Part shown: positions 13,223-22,317 of the stretch, piece by piece
How positions within the stretch are numbered: the first letter of the stretch is position 1
How the letters are laid out: every line of letters begins with the position of its first letter
Source of the DNA: a phage
Sequence record: NC_100372.1
Direction: 5' to 3' (one strand)
DNA: 64,000 bases
The notes under the pieces: generated by a model
What the model saw: only the letters and a program-made list of their open reading frames with translations
What the model was told of the DNA's origin: nothing
Database searches by the model: none
Made by a program: the position numbers and the translations under genes

Positions 13223-13423
13223 ATGGCTGATTTTTGCAAAGATTGTTCTGAAGAGTTGTTTGGTTTTGACTGCAGAGATCTGGAAGGACTGATCACAGAA
13301 GACCAGTGGAAGGAAGGTTATGCGGCACCTGTTATTTGTGAAGGTTGTGGCTATACCTATGTTGACCATAAAGGTAAGCGCGTCAAGCCGTCTGAAGATG
13401 GGGCATGTTGGGAGTATTACTAA
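13223..13423 (+). CDS. small Cys-rich zinc-ribbon-like protein
   Basis: 66 aa; CxxC ... CxxC ... C spacing (CKDC ... CEGCGY ... C). Confidence 0.4.
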   Translation: MADFCKDCSEELFGFDCRDLEGLITEDQWKEGYAAPVICEGCGYTYVDHKGKRVKPSEDGACWEYY

Positions 13424-13429
13424 CTATAA

Positions 13430-13458
13430 AAAGAAAGGGGCCAAATGGCCCCTTTTTT
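13430..13458. terminator. bidirectional intrinsic terminator (GGGGCC-AAAT-GGCCCC flanked by T/A runs)
   Basis: 6-bp GC stem with TTTTTT on plus and a U-rich tract on minus; sits between convergent genes 13223..13423 (+) and 13471..19104 (-). Confidence 0.6.
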
Positions 13459-13470
13459 ATCTACTACTTG

Positions 13471-16400
13471 TTAAAGAGAGAAAGTCGCGTAGGCTCCCAG
13501 ACGATACTGCTGGTCACCAGGGAACATAACACCTATAGAGGCTGTCCCTAGAATCCTGCCTTCCTTTCCAGACTCCATTCTGAACCCTACCCATCCGGAA
13601 CTCCTTGCAGCCTCGATGTTGTCGCTATACCCAAAAGTGGCAAGCTCGTCAACACCAGCTCCAAACAGCAACTGAAGCTGACTTCTCGGAAGCCCTATAA
13701 TTTCAGGAATATATGCACCAAAGTACACCATCTGCCCTACCTTAGGACCGCTGCCGTACTCCATCGGCTTGCTTGTAGAGAAAGTCTTCATACCAGAAGT
13801 CCCTGCCGGATTAGGGTATGCCCCGTTTGTTGCTGTGCCTATCCACATTCTCCACTGAGGTGCCATCTGTCTGACAGTGAAAGATGTTGAAGACGTTTTG
13901 CGGCCTGCATCATCCGTAACTACAAACTTTATAGTGACATTACCAGGGGCTTTAAATGTTACCAATCCTGTGGTAGCATCCACTGTTGCAATGTTAGTAT
14001 TACTACTTTCCCAAGTCTTTCTAATCCCTGGCACATTGGAAGGGGTAATAGAAGGTTCCTGCATCTGCAGTTTACCGCCCACAATCCCTATGCCGTTACC
14101 TGGATTATACAACGCACCAACTTCATCTACAATGTTACCTGCCTTGAGGCTGTACTTTTTAGAGAAGTTGTAAGTGCCGTTATATGCGTGTGTCCCTGAG
14201 AAGGTTACATCTGCCTTGCCGTTGGAGATGCAAACCAAAGCATACTTCCTGTCAGGCAACTGTGCCCCAGTTTCTGGGTGAGTTTTACCCACCTGGAACA
14301 CGCTCGGGTCAGTAGAGTCGTGGCTATCACTAACAGAGCTTGGACCACCCATCAACTGTGACAAGCAATTCCTTACCCATGTCCAGTTATTGTCACTGGA
14401 GAAGTCTACAGTCAAATCAAACACAACCCACTCATTTGGCTTCCACACAGGTGTTGTGATCAACTTACCAACACCCCCACCCTGAAGGGTAGGAGATTGT
14501 TCAGTGATCAAGGCAGAGTATGCCAGAGTTCCCAACTGCATAGTCTGGCTTGCTGTTCTCACTACCTTAGAATCAGCATCTGTGAAGTTGTTGATGATCT
14601 GGAATGTGCCATAAGTGTTTTTACAGGTAATTCTGGCATTCAGTGTATCAATCTTTCTCACATCTGCCATGGCAGTGTTAGACACAGAGAAGTCAGAAGC
14701 TTTAGCTGAGTTTGCTGCAACAGCCGGATCAACGTTGAGGGTTGCGTTGAACTGGCAGGCAGGAGTAACCAGTAGCTTGTTATCACCTATTTGCTTCCAT
14801 GAAACACTTTGAACAGGGAGATTCCATTTAATACCTGAGAAAACTTTAGCAACCCTTGGTCCCAAAGCTCCAGTTCTGTTGTCTTTACAACACATAGACA
14901 TGGTGATTGTTGACGGAGTGGCCTGACCAAACAATTGCTGGGCTTTTGCAGAGGACATAGTGTAGAAATTGTCCTTAACAAACTCATCAGCTGCTAACGA
15001 TCCGTCAGATCTCCACCATTGTACCTGGTACCCTGTCTTATCCCAGCCACCAACCTGCTTTAAGTCCTCCCAAGAGATTTCCAAATCCCCCGTGGTAGGG
15101 TTGATTGCCGCAGTTCCCGGTGTTCCAGATGACCATATTGGTATATCGAACCACGCTGGCTTAACAGACTGCACTGCGTTAGGGCCTATTGCAGCAGCAA
15201 GTTGTTGACCCATCAATACGCGAGCATCTTTCACCAGACCCCACTCGATCATGGATCCGGAGTAACCCTCTTTCTTATACGCGGATGACCCATTCAAGTG
15301 AATAAGTCTACTTGTGCCGAAGTTATGTGCTCCACCGCCGTTGTCGTCTGCAAAATTGGTTATGATTCTATCCCTGATGTTTTTCCATGCCCTGCCCCCA
15401 ATCTCGTAGTCATGGTCATAACATCTTTGCAGCGTTGTCCAGCAAATGATCGCCATCCTTCTGCCGTTACTGAAGCCAAAAGCCTGATCGTTAAGCTCTC
15501 TCCACAAATAGCAGTTAGTGGTCCACATAGCTCTGTGAATGTTGAACCAGTTTATAGACTTGGCTGAGTTATCCCACTGAGTCCCAGGTAATTCAGGCCA
15601 CACTGCATTAACCAGCATGTCTTCTGTTCCTGCATCAACCAAGAACCCTCTTACCTTTTTACCCATGCCTACCCTGTCTTTTGCAATCCAACTGCCAAAC
15701 AATCTCAGTTTTGGACCGTAAACAACATCTTCCGGATGCTCAAAAGAGACATACTTCAGATATACTGTAGGGTCACCATAGGTGCCATCACAAACAGCTT
15801 TGTGCATGTTCTCGCCAAGGTCTAGACGAAGTCCTGTTACAACTTTTGACGTGTCGGTGAATTTGTCTGTTAAATCAAATTCATACCACCACCAACCTGC
15901 ACCCAACAATACCTTCTTACAACGCTGCGCATCTGTATCAGATATTCTCTTATCTCCTGAAAAAGGTGAGTCAGCAAACTGATAGTGCAGAGCAATTTCA
16001 AAAGGATGTGTGGAGGTCCCGTTTTCTGCAAGGACTTGTTTACCTATTAAGTCACACTTAATAATCATCACAACACGTTTGTACCCATTTGTTACTGGGA
16101 TCTGCATAGACATAGATGTCCCGTCCATGTTTGATCTCAGCGCAGTCATGATGATATAAGGATCAACGGCATTACCAAGAGTTTCAGGCCCTGGAATTAT
16201 CTTATACTTCTTAACCTGCCCCATGATGTAATCACTGGCGTAAGTTGCAGCCTCGAAGCAAGATCCCCCGTTAGGCAGTTCCCCTGGCCCCCAGAAAAAT
16301 GCGCCATAACAGTTATAAAACCACTTGTTAGGGTCGTATTTGTTCTTGAAGGTCTGAACCTCGTTGGCCTGTTTTGTCAAGAAAACCTGCGTATCTGTAA

Positions 16401-19104
16401 AGATTGCAGGGTTTACTCTTGACTGTCGATTAGCATACCCGGTTTGGTTAAACCATTGATTGCAAGAGTAATCCCTCATATAATCGTAATCAGAGTATTT
16501 GTTTGCATCCTCGTTCCAACACATGTTGAGGTTGGTGCCGCCCATGCATACAATATATTCTTCAACGTATTTATCACTTCGAGTGGGAATTCCTATGAAC
16601 CATCTGTTAACAGGCTCGTCCCAAGCGGTACGTTCATCTTTAACGCAGATTGCAATCCAGTCATGTGTCCCTGTTTTCTTGCACACATCCCGTTTCATAC
16701 CGTAGTAGAATTCTTTGGTATTTGGCTCAGGTGCGCTTATCAGGTAGCTCCACGCTTGGTCTGCATAGGTTCCGTCAGTGCGTGGGTCGTGATCAAAGGC
16801 GTACATGATGATCCTTTCCCCGCCAAGATGTTCACCAAGAGTAACTTTGATGTTCACATCCCCGTAACCGTTGCGAACAACATCCATATTATCAATAGAA
16901 ATACCTCTAGGAGTGTAGGCAATTTTCAGCGAGTTATCCTCACTGGTGCCCCCAAGTGTAATCCCTATGTTGTTTGTTGTCCCGTCGGCATATCTTACTG
17001 TGGCTTCCCAGCGTATTCCGAAATATCCTGCATCATGGCTGACAATTTTCAGTGTACGAGCACCTGGGTGAGGTTTTCCAGGATCAGGCCAAGGGTCTGG
17101 GTGTTCGTGGACAGTCAACGACGTTCCGTTTTGCTCGTTAACCTGCAACATTTTACCACCTCTGCCGTTAGGGTTGAACTCCCATACGGCCTGTGTCTGC
17201 ACTAAGTTGTTGTAGGTATTTCGTCTCTGATCATAAATCTCTTGGGTAACATCATAGGTGACTGATCCAGCATCCATTCTGTGGAGTCGGACCATATACG
17301 ATGTATCTCCTTCTACCGCAGGCTGAGTCCCATTCAGCCCGAAGTATACAGTATCGTTAACATGGAACTGCTTGTTTCTACCAACGGTATGCCACTTACC
17401 GTCAGAAGGATACGCAGGAACTATGGTGTTCCAGTTCAAAGTCCTTGTCGTGTGAGTTCTTCCTGTGCCATGCTTGTCATGATAGGTTATTTTTACAGAG
17501 TACAGGCCACGTCTGTTAACATTCCTGTTATACTGAGTAACAACAACTTCGTTGGCCCCGCCGTGGTTCCAGTTGGTGGAGAATTGGTAATTTGCATCTG
17601 TAACAACCGTACCCGCAGCATTTACCAGTTCAATCTTGTCAATAATGAACGTAGCCCCCTCTGGCTGAGGCTTCAATTTCATCTTGACCGTGTCACCAAT
17701 GTAAATATTGCTAACGCTGCTAACACCGTTAACGTCAAAAATATCATCAACACCCCAACTGTCTACTGGGACATTTTTATACCAATTCTCAGGAACCTCT
17801 GTGAACCCCTGACTATTAAGTCTGCCGCCAAACAGGTTGTTAGAGCCTGCAAAACTTCCCCTTGGGATGCCTGACCACCAAAGTTTACCATTAACAACAG
17901 TAAAGGTACCTAAAAAACCTTCTCTGTGAATGCCTTGGAAATAAACACTCTCTGTCCAGCTAACTGGGAGGCGTTGCTCAACGTATTTGGCTGTGGCAAG
18001 AGCTTGATAGTGGATAAAATTGGCCCTAGGGTTATTGTTTGCAGATTGTGCGCCAATATCATTACATAAGTTGCGAGAGAATCCGCGATACTGCTTAGTG
18101 CCATTATTGAAGAAAATGCCACTTGTTCCGTACCCACGAGCCATTATTACTTCATGGGTGTAGGTAATATTTAAGGAACGCCATGTATCATCTCCCCAGA
18201 CATCTTGCCCGTAGAATACGTTAACAAGCTGCTGGTCATTGGGCTTATGCATCCGCTGTGTAACAACCACTGCCCCGTTCGGACCGCACATGAACCCTTT
18301 CCACTCCTCGTCTGCAGGAATGCCTCTCAAATCGTCACGGGTAACCTGAGCAGGAGGCCAAACGAGAGTGTTTCTACTATTATTCCTCAGAAAGTCATAT
18401 CCAGCAATCCAGAAACCTCTAGGGCCACCGAAAATAACAGAGTTATCATGCACCTCGCAGTTAATGCTTGGGTTTTTCCAAGGACCTGTTTCAGGATTTT
18501 CTGATGTTTCACCAATCTTTACAGGAGTTGCATGCTGGTTTTTATCTACATGCAAAGATCCGTAGGTGTTGTTACCAGATCCATACAGGTTCAGTATGCC
18601 AGTGCCTTCTGCCTCTGCAATAACCCAAACAGTGTTGTTAATACCACCCATCACCTCAACAAGGCGCTCTGGGTGCGTGTCAAGGTGTAACCCTTTAACA
18701 ATCTGTTCAGGAAGAGGTGTCCACTCGTTTACGCAAACATCGTTACCACCTGCCGCAGTGGATCCGATAAGACCTGCAGTGCAGCCAATGTAGAAAAACT
18801 GGTTATCAAAAGTCCGGATCACAAACGCACGGTCTGCTCTCCACACATGATCAACATTCCAGGCTGTCTCGCTCGGGTAGTTTATAGGGCTACGATCCCC
18901 CGTGCGACACTCCCCGAACTTGTTATAGCCAGTAATATTAAGCTGACCATCGTCAAAAAGTATAGCTAAGCTATTTACATAAGCTACTGTAGTGCTTGTA
19001 CCGTCACTGTTGTCTATTGGGTATGACAGAACAGCAAGTTCCTTAACTCCACCCCTCTTATCGAGGAAATGACGACCAAGTTTTAGCAAAGGGATTGGAA
19101 GCAT
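13471..19104 (-). CDS. very large tail fibre / tail-associated protein with RCC1-like and Ig-like regions
   Basis: 1877 aa. N-terminal region has repeated G-rich beta-propeller-like repeats (LYGSGNNTYGSLHV); C-terminal region has Big_2-like segment (GNVTIKFVVTDDAGRKTSSTSFTV). Last gene of the late module. Confidence 0.5.
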   Translation of the reverse strand: MLPIPLLKLGRHFLDKRGGVKELAVLSYPIDNSDGTSTTVAYVNSLAILFDDGQLNITGYNKFGECRTGDRSPINYPSETAWNVDHVWRADRAFVIRTFDNQFFYIGCTAGLIGSTAAGGNDVCVNEWTPLPEQIVKGLHLDTHPERLVEVMGGINNTVWVIAEAEGTGILNLYGSGNNTYGSLHVDKNQHATPVKIGETSENPETGPWKNPSINCEVHDNSVIFGGPRGFWIAGYDFLRNNSRNTLVWPPAQVTRDDLRGIPADEEWKGFMCGPNGAVVVTQRMHKPNDQQLVNVFYGQDVWGDDTWRSLNITYTHEVIMARGYGTSGIFFNNGTKQYRGFSRNLCNDIGAQSANNNPRANFIHYQALATAKYVEQRLPVSWTESVYFQGIHREGFLGTFTVVNGKLWWSGIPRGSFAGSNNLFGGRLNSQGFTEVPENWYKNVPVDSWGVDDIFDVNGVSSVSNIYIGDTVKMKLKPQPEGATFIIDKIELVNAAGTVVTDANYQFSTNWNHGGANEVVVTQYNRNVNRRGLYSVKITYHDKHGTGRTHTTRTLNWNTIVPAYPSDGKWHTVGRNKQFHVNDTVYFGLNGTQPAVEGDTSYMVRLHRMDAGSVTYDVTQEIYDQRRNTYNNLVQTQAVWEFNPNGRGGKMLQVNEQNGTSLTVHEHPDPWPDPGKPHPGARTLKIVSHDAGYFGIRWEATVRYADGTTNNIGITLGGTSEDNSLKIAYTPRGISIDNMDVVRNGYGDVNIKVTLGEHLGGERIIMYAFDHDPRTDGTYADQAWSYLISAPEPNTKEFYYGMKRDVCKKTGTHDWIAICVKDERTAWDEPVNRWFIGIPTRSDKYVEEYIVCMGGTNLNMCWNEDANKYSDYDYMRDYSCNQWFNQTGYANRQSRVNPAIFTDTQVFLTKQANEVQTFKNKYDPNKWFYNCYGAFFWGPGELPNGGSCFEAATYASDYIMGQVKKYKIIPGPETLGNAVDPYIIMTALRSNMDGTSMSMQIPVTNGYKRVVMIIKCDLIGKQVLAENGTSTHPFEIALHYQFADSPFSGDKRISDTDAQRCKKVLLGAGWWWYEFDLTDKFTDTSKVVTGLRLDLGENMHKAVCDGTYGDPTVYLKYVSFEHPEDVVYGPKLRLFGSWIAKDRVGMGKKVRGFLVDAGTEDMLVNAVWPELPGTQWDNSAKSINWFNIHRAMWTTNCYLWRELNDQAFGFSNGRRMAIICWTTLQRCYDHDYEIGGRAWKNIRDRIITNFADDNGGGAHNFGTSRLIHLNGSSAYKKEGYSGSMIEWGLVKDARVLMGQQLAAAIGPNAVQSVKPAWFDIPIWSSGTPGTAAINPTTGDLEISWEDLKQVGGWDKTGYQVQWWRSDGSLAADEFVKDNFYTMSSAKAQQLFGQATPSTITMSMCCKDNRTGALGPRVAKVFSGIKWNLPVQSVSWKQIGDNKLLVTPACQFNATLNVDPAVAANSAKASDFSVSNTAMADVRKIDTLNARITCKNTYGTFQIINNFTDADSKVVRTASQTMQLGTLAYSALITEQSPTLQGGGVGKLITTPVWKPNEWVVFDLTVDFSSDNNWTWVRNCLSQLMGGPSSVSDSHDSTDPSVFQVGKTHPETGAQLPDRKYALVCISNGKADVTFSGTHAYNGTYNFSKKYSLKAGNIVDEVGALYNPGNGIGIVGGKLQMQEPSITPSNVPGIRKTWESSNTNIATVDATTGLVTFKAPGNVTIKFVVTDDAGRKTSSTSFTVRQMAPQWRMWIGTATNGAYPNPAGTSGMKTFSTSKPMEYGSGPKVGQMVYFGAYIPEIIGLPRSQLQLLFGAGVDELATFGYSDNIEAARSSGWVGFRMESGKEGRILGTASIGVMFPGDQQYRLGAYATFSL

Positions 19105-19152
19105 TGTGTTCTCCAGATAAGAAAACCGCCCCGTCAGGAGCGGTCAGATATA

Positions 19153-20898
19153 TTAACGTTGTGCAATAACCACATCCACAATATCACCAACACCACAATA
19201 TGTCAATTGTAACAAGGTGACACTGTTGGCTTTGTTGTTAATAACAGGAGTAGCCGACAGTATGGCATATTTATCGTGTAAAGTCACGTTGTGGCCTACA
19301 GCATCCTGAATGACATAGATGATTGCAGTGAACGGGTAAGGTTTATCTTCAGCCGATGTTCCAGGCCATTGCCCTATTGTAAAATCCCCTTTCGCGTGGA
19401 CAACATACATATTGGCCTGCCCGTTAGGTGTCCATGTTCCACTAGATGCGTCAGCCTCCTCTAAGTCAAACTCCACCTTCCCTGCATGGAAAGCAGGGGC
19501 AGTAATAGTTTTACCAGCTTCAATTTCTTGAGAGGTGGTTATCTTGCCACTGGAGTTAATGCCATTACAGACAAAGTTGACATTAGAGAAGTCTGGCAGC
19601 CACCCAGTCACTGTACCTGATATTTCAAGGTTGTGAAGGTAGGTGGTGCCAGTCCCTGCTGCGTTTAAACTAACATCTCCATTTACCTGCAAGTTTCTGG
19701 TAACGTTGCAGTTTTCAGAGTTTGCAGTTGTTGCAGTTAAAGTGGTGGTTGTCAGCTCGGTAATTACACCTTTGTTGGCTGTAAGCCCTTCTCCTTCAAA
19801 AGTGGCACGCTCATTCACCCTCAGAGTATTTAAAGATATGTTCTGGACAGATGCTGTGCCACGAATGACTATAGATCCGCCAACCTCTAAATCTCCATTG
19901 ATCAGTGCATCTCCCGTGCTTTCAATATAGCTAGGGTAGATCATGGTGCCATCTACAGAGTAGGTTATCCCTGTAACGGTGCCTGTCACCTCAAGGTTCT
20001 TAACCCTGGTGGTCCCATCAACCTGCAATGTCGGTTCGGTGGCTGCCTTCATGGCATTACCGCGAATGTACACGTAGTCAAAAAAGTTATTACCTAGACC
20101 ATCAAAATGCACATCGTTGTTATTAGCCACTGGTTTCCCAGAAGTTATAGTGTCAGCTATAACTCTGTGAGTTGATACTTCATGAGGTTGCAGCTCTGTG
20201 CTTCTCCAGTCTGCATGCTTAGGATCGCTCCACGCAAAAGTCAGTGTAGAAGTATTTGCCGTAAGGATTAGGTTCCTGAAGCGTGCAGTAGAATCTGCTC
20301 CATTAACAGGTCCGTGTAAGGTAAGGGTACCCCCAACTATAGTGTTAGCAAGTTCTGTAAGACCTTTTACCACCAAAGATCCTACAGTAACTTTCATCCC
20401 CTCCATGGCTTTAAATATGCTATCCACATAGTCAACAACAAACTCTGTGTTTGCTATAGACTCGGACTTATCATCCATTGGAGGTGTAGGTACTCTCGGG
20501 TCACCTTCGAACCTTGGGCTGTTAAGTTTTGCGTAGTATTTTGCCATTACTGCAGAATCGGTATATAATCTCCAGTTCGGAGATTGTGAAGGATCTGCTG
20601 GCATCCTAACTGGGTTAGATTTTGATGCTGCTGGGGCGTACCACCACTGAGTGCCTGTATCCCCTTTAAACTCATACAACTGGTTAAAAACTGTTGTGGA
20701 TGCACCATACGCCCAAGGGATTGGTGGCGTTTTAAAATAAAGGGTGTCAAGCATGGCTTTTCGTACCGTAGGGATAGTGGTCCCATCCTCTACGACAACT
20801 TCATCCACAGCGTTACCGTTGACAATCAAGTGCAAACGTTCAGAATCAACAATTACTTGATCTACCGCCTGCTCGAAGCTTGTCATGTCTTGCGCCAT
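19153..20898 (-). CDS. tail fibre protein (beta-helix-like repeats)
   Basis: 581 aa; Thr/Gly/Asn-rich repeated segments typical of fibre shafts; sits in tail-fibre cluster. Confidence 0.5.
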   Translation of the reverse strand: MAQDMTSFEQAVDQVIVDSERLHLIVNGNAVDEVVVEDGTTIPTVRKAMLDTLYFKTPPIPWAYGASTTVFNQLYEFKGDTGTQWWYAPAASKSNPVRMPADPSQSPNWRLYTDSAVMAKYYAKLNSPRFEGDPRVPTPPMDDKSESIANTEFVVDYVDSIFKAMEGMKVTVGSLVVKGLTELANTIVGGTLTLHGPVNGADSTARFRNLILTANTSTLTFAWSDPKHADWRSTELQPHEVSTHRVIADTITSGKPVANNNDVHFDGLGNNFFDYVYIRGNAMKAATEPTLQVDGTTRVKNLEVTGTVTGITYSVDGTMIYPSYIESTGDALINGDLEVGGSIVIRGTASVQNISLNTLRVNERATFEGEGLTANKGVITELTTTTLTATTANSENCNVTRNLQVNGDVSLNAAGTGTTYLHNLEISGTVTGWLPDFSNVNFVCNGINSSGKITTSQEIEAGKTITAPAFHAGKVEFDLEEADASSGTWTPNGQANMYVVHAKGDFTIGQWPGTSAEDKPYPFTAIIYVIQDAVGHNVTLHDKYAILSATPVINNKANSVTLLQLTYCGVGDIVDVVIAQR

Positions 20899-20907
20899 GA
20901 TTTCTCC

Positions 20908-21174
20908 TTAAGCTTTTTGCTCTTCGTTTTTAACGTGGTCAGGGTGCTGGCAACCCCACCGGAGCGAGATGAATTTGCTAATAAGCTGGGGGCAAGCTAC
21001 CGAAGGTGCGTATATCCACGCATACCATTCAGGAAGCGTATCATTGTACCCCATATGAATAAACACCCCAGTCATCACTGCCATGCCTATGTTTGACCAT
21101 AGCTTAGATTGGGACACTTTCGTAGGGTCATCAGATGCCGCAACCAACCCCCATAAAAACTGAGTTAATTTCAT
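20908..21174 (-). CDS. small protein with one hydrophobic segment
   Basis: 88 aa ORF exactly filling the gap between two fibre genes; hydrophobic stretch NIGMAVMTGVFIHMGY. Confidence 0.35.
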   Translation of the reverse strand: MKLTQFLWGLVAASDDPTKVSQSKLWSNIGMAVMTGVFIHMGYNDTLPEWYAWIYAPSVACPQLISKFISLRWGCQHPDHVKNEEQKA

Positions 21175-22230: not shown

Positions 22231-22317
22231 GTTCTCCTGAGAAAATTCCTTAAGGACTATTTTAACACTTTAGAGAACAAAATGCAAGAACGGCATCCTT
22301 GCCGTTCTGGCCTTTGT

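What the first reader, a model, noticed from the sequence alone, without database searches (positions are those of the whole stretch)
13471..19104. 1877-aa terminal protein of the late module with RCC1-like repeats and Ig-like domains
This is the largest gene in the window and the last before the bidirectional terminator. Its N-terminal region has repeated G-x-N/G-rich blades (LYGSGNNTYGSLHV) suggestive of a beta-propeller, and its C-terminal part has Big_2-like Ig segments. A propeller domain on a fibre-sized protein is unusual and could be a lectin or enzymatic receptor-binding domain.
Basis: partly seen in the sequence, partly recalled or inferred. Interest (0 to 1): 0.4.

Follow-up and report, generated by a model that had tools for sequence, protein, structure and literature searches.

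The report
Giant rV5-type phage propeller–Ig fibre protein
This is the known but uncharacterised 208-kDa last gene of the tail-fibre cluster of rV5-like coliphages (rV5 gp27): it does begin with an RCC1-like propeller domain and carries an Ig-like domain near its end, but the propeller looks more like the conserved base of the protein than its receptor-binding tip.

Summary
Window 13471-19104 (-) is one 1877-aa ORF, the largest in the window. It is the last late gene before a bidirectional terminator.

The window is a Vequintavirus. The gene is 97.7% identical in DNA to Bas49 'lateral tail fiber protein with intimin domain' and is the orthologue of rV5 gp27.

RCC1-like repeats at the N-terminus are real at profile level:
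- Pfam RLD E 4e-5 and phrog_4219 E 5e-7.
- A family profile hits only RCC1-family propellers in the PDB (UVR8 5e-12, HERC1 6e-9).
- Shorter orthologues pass Pfam's RCC1 cut-off.

A closed seven-bladed propeller is inferred, not shown, because AlphaFold2 failed (pLDDT 41).

Only one Big_2 domain is significant by sequence. Other beta-sandwich domains rest on weak models. Residues 481-1433 have no relative outside the family among 1.84 billion representatives.

The propeller is the part shared across genera. Variation within the genus sits in the last ~125 residues.

The best reading is a low-copy accessory adhesin fibre, anchored by the N-terminal propeller, with a variable C-terminal tip. Virion association rests on weak MS data. 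The gene is already known and of modest interest.

The parts
13471..19104 (-). Complete CDS, 1877 aa, 208 kDa, pI 6.35. Orthologue of rV5 gp27 and Bas49 gp41.
   Evidence: ORF list and translation. 97.7% nucleotide identity to MZ501062 bas49_0041. rV5 gp027. Mass and pI.
19015..19104 (-). N-terminal peptide, aa 1-30 (MLPIPLL...G19.K21). M1, P3, I4, P5, G19 and K21 are invariant even in orthologues that are 25-33% identical. Candidate docking peptide and/or closing strand of the propeller.
   Evidence: Alignment A4. The function is inferred.
17770..19017 (-). RCC1-like domain (RLD), about aa 30-445. Probably a seven-bladed beta-propeller. Clear RCC1 repeats at aa ~37-81 and 149-198; the remaining blades are degenerate.
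   Evidence: Pfam WD40_RLD E 4e-5. phrog_4219 E 4.8e-7. Family profile against the PDB: UVR8 5e-12, HERC1 6e-9, HERC2, RPGR, RCC2. Orthologues pass the Pfam RCC1 cut-off. Foldseek of the weak model hits RCC1-family propellers at prob 1.0. Repeat spacing fits seven blades.
18514..18660 (-). Best-preserved RCC1 blade, aa 149-197, containing LYGSGNNTYGSLHV.
   Evidence: It aligns to each blade of UVR8. It corresponds to the PF00415 hit in the orthologues.
14806..17664 (-). Family-specific central region, aa 481-1433, with no detectable relative outside this protein family. Contains predicted beta-sandwich domains at about aa 451-560, 735-842, 965-1125 and 1330-1425.
   Evidence: phmmer against 1.84 billion representatives gave only two hits, both from the same family. 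No Pfam, NCBIfam or PDB hits. AlphaFold2 domain confidences.
15130..16569 (-). Strongly conserved core of the central region, aa 846-1325. Rich in Trp and Cys, with invariant motifs such as GTEDMLVNAVWP, SINWFNxHRAMW and EGYSGSMIEWG. Fold and function unknown.
   Evidence: Conservation profile and invariant columns. Composition. AlphaFold2 predicts helices here at pLDDT below 30, which is unreliable.
14356..14808 (-). Variable segment, aa 1433-1583. Replaced or expanded in the sister clade, where identity is only 20-28%.
   Evidence: BLASTP coverage gap at 1433-1583 and insertion sites.
13840..14334 (-). Two Ig-like domains: aa 1591-1655 (structure prediction only) and aa 1672-1755 (Big_2; Pfam core 1685-1732).
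13474..13839 (-). C-terminal beta-rich domain, aa 1756-1877 (16% Gly). The most polymorphic part within Vequintavirus; candidate host-contact tip.
   Evidence: 44-76% identity to the AlexBoehm allele against more than 88% elsewhere. Two allele classes among 113 phage records. pLDDT 50-70.
13434..13455 (.). Bidirectional rho-independent terminator shared with the converging plus-strand genes.
   Evidence: rV5 t026/t027.
19111..19145 (-). Terminator-like hairpin (19124-19145, identical to rV5 t028) followed by the RBS GGAG (19111-19114), directly upstream of the ATG. No late-promoter motif lies in between.

Best explanation
The gene encodes a low-abundance accessory adhesin or side fibre of an rV5-like myovirus.

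Shown:
- It is the last gene of the tail-fibre module.
- It starts with an RCC1-like repeat domain and carries a Big_2 Ig-like domain near the C-terminus.
- The N-terminal peptide plus RLD is the only part shared with the positional orthologues of other genera.
- Polymorphism within the genus is concentrated in the last ~125 residues.
- A terminator hairpin with no promoter motif after it precedes the gene.

Inferred:
- The conserved N-terminal peptide and propeller dock the protein on a conserved virion partner. The most plausible partner is the product of the always-adjacent gp28-type fibre gene, or the baseplate periphery. On this view the propeller is a protein-protein platform, as RCC1-family domains usually are.
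- The ~1400 residues that follow form an extended chain of beta-sandwich domains around a conserved core of unknown fold.
- The Ig-like domains and the variable C-terminal domain make weak, reversible contacts with host surface glycans. These contacts would help adsorption or host range rather than being the essential receptor trigger.
- Read-through of the upstream terminator keeps the copy number low.
For: - Identity and context.
- RLD.
- Conserved synteny of a gp28-like fibre gene followed by the RLD gene in Vequintavirus, Seunavirus and Phapecoctavirus. gp28 is 43-45% identical over its full length in Seunavirus.
- Architecture series: RLD+Big_2 (570-610 aa), then 891 aa, then 1877 aa, with only the N-terminus shared.
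- Conservation: the N-terminal 480 aa are at least 87% identical in every full-length Vequintavirus copy. A third of the genomes carry a 77-80% allele of the last 294 aa, with the drop located in aa 1751-1877.
- The C-terminal half models as Ig-like beads, including matches to Ig domains of phage tail proteins.
- Ig-like domains on phages are known as accessory carbohydrate-adhesion modules of structural proteins (Fraser et al. 2006, cited in PMC7344957; the functional reading of that paper is my own knowledge).
- RCC1-type proteins were found by MS in W70 virions (PMC11370258).
- Terminator t028 lies upstream, and there is no late-promoter motif before the ATG.
- Three peptides of gp27 appear in the rV5 virion MS table.
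Against: - No confident 3-D model: pLDDT 41 for aa 1-845 and 50.6 for aa 836-1877. The closed propeller, the domain count and the extended shape are therefore unproven.
- Virion association is weak. The three rV5 peptides are non-tryptic and low-scoring, the same table also lists a non-structural rIIA-like protein, and gp27 is not among the proteins named in the paper's text.
- No experiment places the protein on the tail, or shows which end is attached.
- No fibre-typical trimerisation fold was detected.
- Conservation of the propeller could equally reflect binding of a conserved host glycan.
- The strongly conserved central core (aa 846-1325) is not explained by a passive-spacer role.
Confidence: 0.5

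Rival explanations
1. The N-terminal propeller is itself the receptor-binding (lectin) or enzymatic domain, and the rest of the protein is stalk.
For: - Beta-propellers can be lectins or glycosidases.
- BASEL authors argue that the conserved parts of Vequintavirus fibres may target conserved glycans such as ECA.
- The RLD is under strong constraint.
Against: - The propeller is N-terminal, and it is the only module shared among genera that infect different hosts (E. coli, Salmonella, Enterobacter, Cronobacter).
- Polymorphism lies at the opposite end.
- All sequence and fold matches are to RCC1-family protein-interaction domains. None is to a lectin or glycosidase propeller.
- Another fibre protein, with a deacetylase domain, is already assigned to the conserved glycan.
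Confidence: 0.2
2. It is a head or neck decoration fibre, comparable to Hoc or whiskers, that mediates adherence to mucus or surfaces rather than a tail fibre. It could be anchored through its C-terminal region.
For: - phrog_215, which matches aa 1592-1876, is filed under 'head and packaging' as 'structural protein with Ig domain'.
- Weak PDB matches of the Big_2 region include a phage decoration protein (9kmh gp29, E 0.054).
- The predicted domains are beta-sandwiches and a propeller, which are monomer-type folds, with no trimeric fibre fold detected.
Against: - The gene is embedded at the end of the baseplate and tail-fibre module, next to a fibre gene, in three genera.
- PHROG labels the N-terminal family 'tail protein' (phrog_11922).
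- The C-terminal domain is the variable part and is absent from the short orthologues, which argues against it being a conserved capsid anchor.
Confidence: 0.12
3. The conserved central core (aa 846-1325) is a new glycan-degrading or glycan-modifying enzyme. On this view the protein is a depolymerase-type fibre, and the propeller and Ig domains serve as anchor and binding modules.
For: - The core is as conserved as the propeller. It is rich in Trp, Cys, Asp and Glu, with invariant acidic and aromatic motifs.
- Other fibres of this module carry glycosidase or deacetylase domains.
Against: - No match to any enzyme family in Pfam, NCBIfam, PHROGs or the PDB, and no relatives outside the family.
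- The model there is unreliable.
- The short orthologues lack the region entirely.
Confidence: 0.15

Closest known systems
rV5 gp27 (YP_002003529, 'Ig-like domain-containing protein') and BASEL Bas49 gp41 ('lateral tail fiber protein with intimin domain'); PHROG family phrog_15684
   Same: The same gene. DNA identity is 91.7-97.7%, with full-length colinearity and the same position and terminators.
   Different: Nothing substantive differs. Public annotations mention only the Ig/intimin-like domain. The N-terminal RCC1-like domain and the domain map are not annotated in those records.
Short positional orthologues: PVP-SE1 gp40 (604 aa), Enterobacter phage EC152 'Ig domain-containing protein' (567 aa), phAPEC8 gp180 (891 aa)
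   Same: Each is the last gene of the tail-fibre module, downstream of a gp28-like fibre gene and before a convergent terminator. They share a homologous N-terminal peptide plus RLD (25-40% identity), followed by Big_2 domain(s).
   Different: They lack the ~1100-aa central region and the C-terminal 125-aa domain. Their RCC1 repeats are better preserved and pass the Pfam cut-off, whereas the query's do not.
Stand-alone RCC1 virion proteins of Septuagintavirus W70 (W70_237/238/239, phrog_4219)
   Same: They are RCC1-like propellers in the same phage subfamily. The query's aa 42-197 match phrog_4219, and the W70 proteins were detected in virions by MS (PMC11370258).
   Different: They are ~40-kDa propeller-only proteins encoded elsewhere in the genome. 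Their location in the virion and their function are also unknown.
Eukaryotic RCC1-like domains (RCC1, UVR8, HERC1/2 RLDs, RPGR)
   Same: The repeat signature and probable seven-bladed propeller are shared. They are the only PDB families hit by the family profile and by Foldseek.
   Different: There is no functional relationship to Ran-GEF, UV sensing or similar roles. Identity is 15-19% over about three blades, and blades 4-7 of the phage domain are degenerate.
Ig-like-domain accessory adhesins of phages (T4 Hoc, lambda gpV C-terminal Ig, T5 pb6, N4 gp65)
   Different: Those domains decorate capsid or tail-tube proteins with known locations. Here the Ig domains are part of a 208-kDa multidomain protein whose location is unknown.

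Membership tests
RCC1-like domain (Pfam PF00415 RCC1 repeat / PF25390 WD40_RLD; seven-bladed propeller) | RCC1 repeat or RLD model matched above Pfam's curated cut-off in the protein itself | tested here: not met
   In the query, WD40_RLD scores 23.5 bits (cut-off 150) and RCC1_2 scores 13.1 bits (cut-off 22). PF00415 is not reported for the query.
RCC1-like domain (Pfam PF00415 RCC1 repeat / PF25390 WD40_RLD; seven-bladed propeller) | Homology to RCC1-family proteins at profile level, and orthologues that pass the curated cut-off | tested here: met
   The family profile A4 against the PDB hits only the RCC1 family: UVR8 5e-12, HERC1 6e-9, HERC2 3.5e-5, RPGR and RCC2. phrog_4219 matches at E 4.8e-7. 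Orthologues aligned over the whole domain score 24.0-36.6 bits on PF00415 against a cut-off of 21.7.
RCC1-like domain (Pfam PF00415 RCC1 repeat / PF25390 WD40_RLD; seven-bladed propeller) | Seven blades closing into a propeller | tested here: inconclusive
   The AlphaFold2 model of aa 1-845 has pLDDT 41 and no closed propeller. Foldseek still ranks RCC1-family propellers first, but over ~150-180 columns with TM of about 0.25. Two blades are clear in the query and four in Seunavirus orthologues, and their spacing fits 2+3+1+1 = 7.
Big_2 bacterial Ig-like domain (PF02368) | Pfam model above the gathering score | tested here: met
   33.0 bits for the whole protein and 37.1 bits for the fragment, against a cut-off of 22.8, at aa 1685-1732. 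pLDDT is 74-90 there.
Intimin/invasin adhesins (the 'intimin domain' of the public annotation) | Intimin architecture: outer-membrane beta-barrel, serial Big domains and a C-type-lectin-like tip. NCBIfam intimin cut-off is 1400 bits. | tested here: not met
   Only a 39-residue stretch (aa 1695-1733) aligns to one intimin Ig domain: 21.8 bits against a cut-off of 1400, and PDB E of 0.005. The label means nothing more than 'Big_2'.
Phage lateral tail fibre / receptor-binding fibre | Encoded in the tail-fibre/baseplate module of the late region | tested here: met
   It is the last gene of the module in the window and in annotated relatives.
Phage lateral tail fibre / receptor-binding fibre | Conserved N-terminus (attachment) with a variable C-terminus (receptor contact) | tested here: met
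Phage lateral tail fibre / receptor-binding fibre | Trimeric fibrous fold (triple beta-helix, coiled coil, intramolecular chaperone, or a dedicated assembly chaperone next to the gene) | tested here: not met
   No such Pfam, PHROG or PDB match. The predicted domains are a propeller and beta-sandwiches. The Tfa-type chaperone of the module sits beside the short fibre genes, not beside this gene. Oligomeric state itself cannot be tested with these tools.
Phage lateral tail fibre / receptor-binding fibre | Demonstrated presence in the virion, on the tail | not testable with these tools
   Only weak literature evidence exists: three low-score non-tryptic peptides in rV5 Table S5. No structural localisation has been reported. 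The phi92 and phiTE cryo-EM papers do not assign a homologue.

The most novel reading that the evidence does not exclude
The RCC1-like propeller could be a previously unrecognised docking adaptor that plugs accessory proteins onto the fibre network of rV5-like phages. This would explain both the fused forms and the stand-alone RCC1 virion proteins. Alternatively or in addition, the ~480-residue conserved orphan core (aa 846-1325), which has no relative outside this family among 1.84 billion proteins, could be a new fold with enzymatic activity on a host envelope glycan.
Probability: 0.2. Interest if true: 0.55.

Novelty: already known. Interest (0 to 1): 0.27.

Why it matters
rV5-like phages are widely used therapeutic and biocontrol candidates with unusually broad host range. 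It is still an open question which gene makes which of their several fibres (BASEL paper). The analysis yields three concrete, testable constructs:
- a conserved N-terminal RCC1-like base;
- a conserved orphan core;
- Ig-like domains with a swappable 125-residue tip.

It also corrects two misleading labels: 'intimin domain', and 'chromosome condensation protein' for the related stand-alone propellers. It does not reveal a new kind of system.

Tried and rejected
1. AlphaFold2 on aa 1-845 and aa 836-1877, each with an 8-sequence alignment. Both models were poor (pLDDT 41 and 50.6), because the family has only two shallow clades.

2. Deepening the alignments:
- Whole-protein homologue search: 15 hits.
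- N-terminus-only search: 2 hits.
- Profile search with A4: 10 hits, all rV5-like phage proteins.
- Exhaustive phmmer of aa 481-1433 against 1.84 billion representatives: only the family itself.

3. PDB profile searches of both halves found nothing beyond the Big_2 domain. NCBIfam found only intimin fragments.

5. A search for paralogues of any part of the protein elsewhere in the window found none. A search for internal sequence repeats also found none.

6. tblastn of the C-terminal module, using both the query and the sister-clade version, to find it in other phage groups returned Vequintavirus only. The source of phrog_215 is therefore unresolved.

7. An IMG/VR scan with the N-terminal profile returned the same lineages only.

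8. A literature search for functional or structural work on rV5 gp27, PVP-SE1 gp40 or RCC1-type fibre proteins found none. The PVP-SE1 proteomics paper is not held in the library.

9. The sigma-70-like promoter hit at 19178-19206 was rejected as chance. The region holds 13 such hits against 10.9 expected, and this one lies upstream of a terminator hairpin.

10. The E-values from the iterated blade HMM are inflated by self-inclusion and are used only for blade positions.
Full report
**1. What is there**

Window 13471-19104 (minus strand) is a single ATG-initiated ORF of 1877 aa, with a mass of 208 kDa and pI 6.35. It is the largest ORF of the window.

Sixteen bases past its stop lies a perfect G+C hairpin at 13434-13455. 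An A-run flanks one side and a T-run the other, and plus-strand genes converge on it from the far side. The coordinates, the size and the 'last gene before a bidirectional terminator' are all correct.

**2. Origin**

The gene is 91.7-97.7% identical in DNA over its full length to more than 100 Vequintavirus (rV5-like myovirus) genomes. In Escherichia phage EmilHeitz (Bas49) it is bas49_0041, 'lateral tail fiber protein with intimin domain'. There it is the last gene of a ~25-kb baseplate and tail-fibre module, and convergent early genes follow it.

It is the orthologue of rV5 gp27 (1878 aa, 'Ig-like domain-containing protein'). PHROGs holds it as its own family, phrog_15684, of unknown function.

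[quoted passage not shown] **3. The N-terminal domain**

The query itself does not reach Pfam's cut-offs, but the signal is clearly above chance:
- WD40_RLD (RCC1-like domain) matches aa 44-199 at E 4e-5.
- phrog_4219 'regulator of chromosome condensation' matches aa 42-197 at E 4.8e-7.

tblastn showed that the first 200-450 residues are shared with the last tail-module gene of three related phages:
- Phapecoctavirus phAPEC8 gp180, 891 aa.
- Seunavirus PVP-SE1 gp40, 604 aa.
- Enterobacter phage EC152, 567 aa.

These shorter proteins, and further ones from metagenomes, pass Pfam's RCC1 repeat cut-off (24.0-36.6 bits against 21.7). They match the RLD model over as much as residues 40-330, and Big_2 domains follow directly.

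A six-sequence profile of the domain (A4) hits nothing in the PDB except RCC1-family seven-bladed propellers: UVR8 5e-12, HERC1 RLD 6e-9, HERC2, RPGR, RCC2 and ATS1. Most of that score comes from one well-kept blade, aa 149-197, which contains LYGSGNNTYGSLHV. That blade aligns to every blade of UVR8.

A blade HMM built from UVR8 recognises blades at about aa 52-77 and 149-197 in the query on the first, independent pass. After iteration it recognises four blades in the Seunavirus orthologues. Their spacing (2+3+1+1) fits seven blades between about residues 30 and 445.

AlphaFold2 with the shallow alignment failed (pLDDT 41), so a closed propeller is not shown. Even so, Foldseek of that model ranks RCC1-family propellers first (prob 1.0, about 150-180 columns).

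Verdict on this domain: RCC1-like repeats are confirmed. A complete seven-bladed propeller is probable but remains an inference.

**4. The rest of the protein**

Only one Big_2 domain is significant by sequence, at aa 1685-1732 (33 bits). The 'intimin' label reflects a 39-residue match to one intimin Ig domain and nothing more.

The second AlphaFold2 model (aa 836-1877, pLDDT 50.6) has moderately confident beta-sandwich domains at about:
- aa 965-1125;
- aa 1330-1425;
- aa 1591-1655;
- aa 1672-1755 (the Big_2 domain, pLDDT up to 90);
- aa 1760-1877, a weaker beta-rich domain.

Residues 481-1433 have no relative outside this protein family among 1.84 billion representative proteins. They also have no Pfam, NCBIfam or PDB match. 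Within that stretch, aa 846-1325 is as conserved as the propeller, with invariant Trp, Cys and acidic motifs. Its fold is unknown. No internal repeats and no paralogues in the window were found.

**5. Pattern of conservation**

| Comparison | Result |
|---|---|
| Across genera | Only the N-terminal peptide (M-x-P-I-P...G...K) and the RLD are shared. The remainder differs in length and content: 570, 891 and 1877 aa. |
| Within Vequintavirus, first 480 aa | Never below about 87% identity in full-length copies. |
| Within Vequintavirus, last 294 aa | About a third of genomes carry an allele that is 77-80% identical. |
| Position of the drop | aa 1751-1877 (44-76% identity against more than 88% elsewhere). 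|
| Uncultured sister clade | aa 1-1432 are 53-59% identical, aa 1433-1583 are replaced, and the C-terminal ~280 aa are 36% identical. |

A gp28-type fibre gene always lies immediately upstream. It is 43-45% identical over its full length in Seunavirus.

**6. Expression and virion evidence**

A hairpin at 19124-19145 plus a T-tract lies between the stop of the upstream fibre gene and the RBS GGAG of this gene. It is identical to rV5 terminator t028. No late-promoter motif (TGGTAAAATA) lies between the hairpin and the ATG. The nearest intergenic motif is at 22258-22267. Expression by terminator read-through, and therefore low copy number, is a reasonable inference. phAPEC8's annotators marked a terminator at the equivalent place.

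The rV5 MS table lists gp27 with three peptides, nine spectra and 3.1% coverage. These peptides are non-tryptic and low-scoring, and the same table also lists an rIIA-like protein. gp27 is not named among the detected proteins in the text, and a later paper counts only six rV5 proteins as MS-confirmed.

Indirect support for a structural role comes from two sources. Three stand-alone RCC1 proteins of the same PHROG family are well-detected virion proteins of Septuagintavirus W70 (PMC11370258). Ig-like domains on phages occur nearly always on structural proteins (Fraser et al. 2006; my own knowledge of that paper).

**7. Interpretation**

The best-supported model is a low-copy accessory adhesin or side fibre, at roughly 50% confidence. 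In this model:
- the conserved N-terminal peptide and RCC1-like propeller form the base that docks on a conserved virion partner, either gp28 or the baseplate periphery;
- a long chain of beta-sandwich domains and a conserved orphan core project outward;
- the Ig-like domains and the polymorphic C-terminal domain contact the host surface.

The position and conservation pattern argue against it, as does the fact that all matches are to protein-interaction RLDs. It is not excluded, since a conserved glycan target would also give conservation (about 20%).

Two further readings remain possible: a head or neck decoration role (about 12%), and an enzymatic role for the orphan core (about 15%, which is compatible with the main model).

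**8. Novelty**

The gene, its family and its position are already in public records. RCC1/RLD hits on the short orthologues are already precomputed in Pfam-annotated databases. What this analysis adds:
- recognition of the RLD in the rV5-type protein itself;
- a domain map;
- the localisation of polymorphism to the last 125 residues;
- the terminator-bounded transcription context;
- a caution about the MS evidence.

This is a useful annotation refinement and a source of testable hypotheses, not a new kind of system.

Noticed in passing
window 19111-19155 (minus strand): A rho-independent terminator-like hairpin (19124-19145, identical to rV5 t028) sits between the stop of the 581-aa fibre gene and the RBS of the 1877-aa gene. 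No late-promoter motif follows it, so the giant gene appears to be expressed only by read-through. phAPEC8 has a terminator annotated at the equivalent place.
   Followed up: partly
GenBank MG0656xx records (hits H23, H40, H55, H66 and others): Fifteen to sixteen records named 'Campylobacter phage' with host Campylobacter jejuni carry rV5-like or phAPEC8-like genomes. Their copies of this gene are 89-97% identical. The host label looks doubtful; the phages may have come from mixed cultures or contaminants.
   Followed up: no
rV5 Additional file 5 (PMC3606486): The rV5 'virion' MS table lists non-tryptic, low-score peptides for gp27 and also for the non-structural rIIA-like gp1. Presence in that table is therefore weak evidence of virion association.
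   Followed up: partly
P0003-P0015; loci L010-L013 (IMG/VR contigs of 117-141 kb): An uncultured sister clade of Vequintavirus encodes a 1930-1976-aa version of the protein. It is 53-59% identical over aa 1-1432. It has a different, longer segment in place of aa 1433-1583, and a C-terminal module that is 36% identical. Two members (P0008, P0014) lack the C-terminal Ig/tip module.
   Followed up: partly
window 13224-13424 (+): A small 66-aa ORF with CxxC...CxxC spacing (Zn-ribbon-like), the equivalent of rV5 gp26, converges on the same bidirectional terminator.
   Followed up: no
window 20908-21174 (-) and neighbours: An 88-aa membrane protein (phrog_1322, filed under 'moron/auxiliary') is embedded between fibre genes. 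PVP-SE1 has three small membrane proteins at the same place. Their role inside a tail-fibre module is unexplained.
   Followed up: no
Septuagintavirus W70 genes 237-239 (PMC11370258): Three stand-alone RCC1-like proteins are abundant virion components. That paper interprets them as 'chromosome condensation' proteins that help DNA packaging. The name is probably misleading, and they may be propeller-type structural or adhesion modules related to the N-terminus studied here.
   Followed up: no
protein aa 1592-1876 against phrog_215: phrog_215 ('structural protein with Ig domain', filed under head and packaging) matches the C-terminal 285 aa at E 3e-47. However, tblastn finds this module only in Vequintavirus gp27 orthologues, so the membership of that PHROG family is unclear. 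It may hold split or fragmentary gene calls, or the sister clade.
   Followed up: partly
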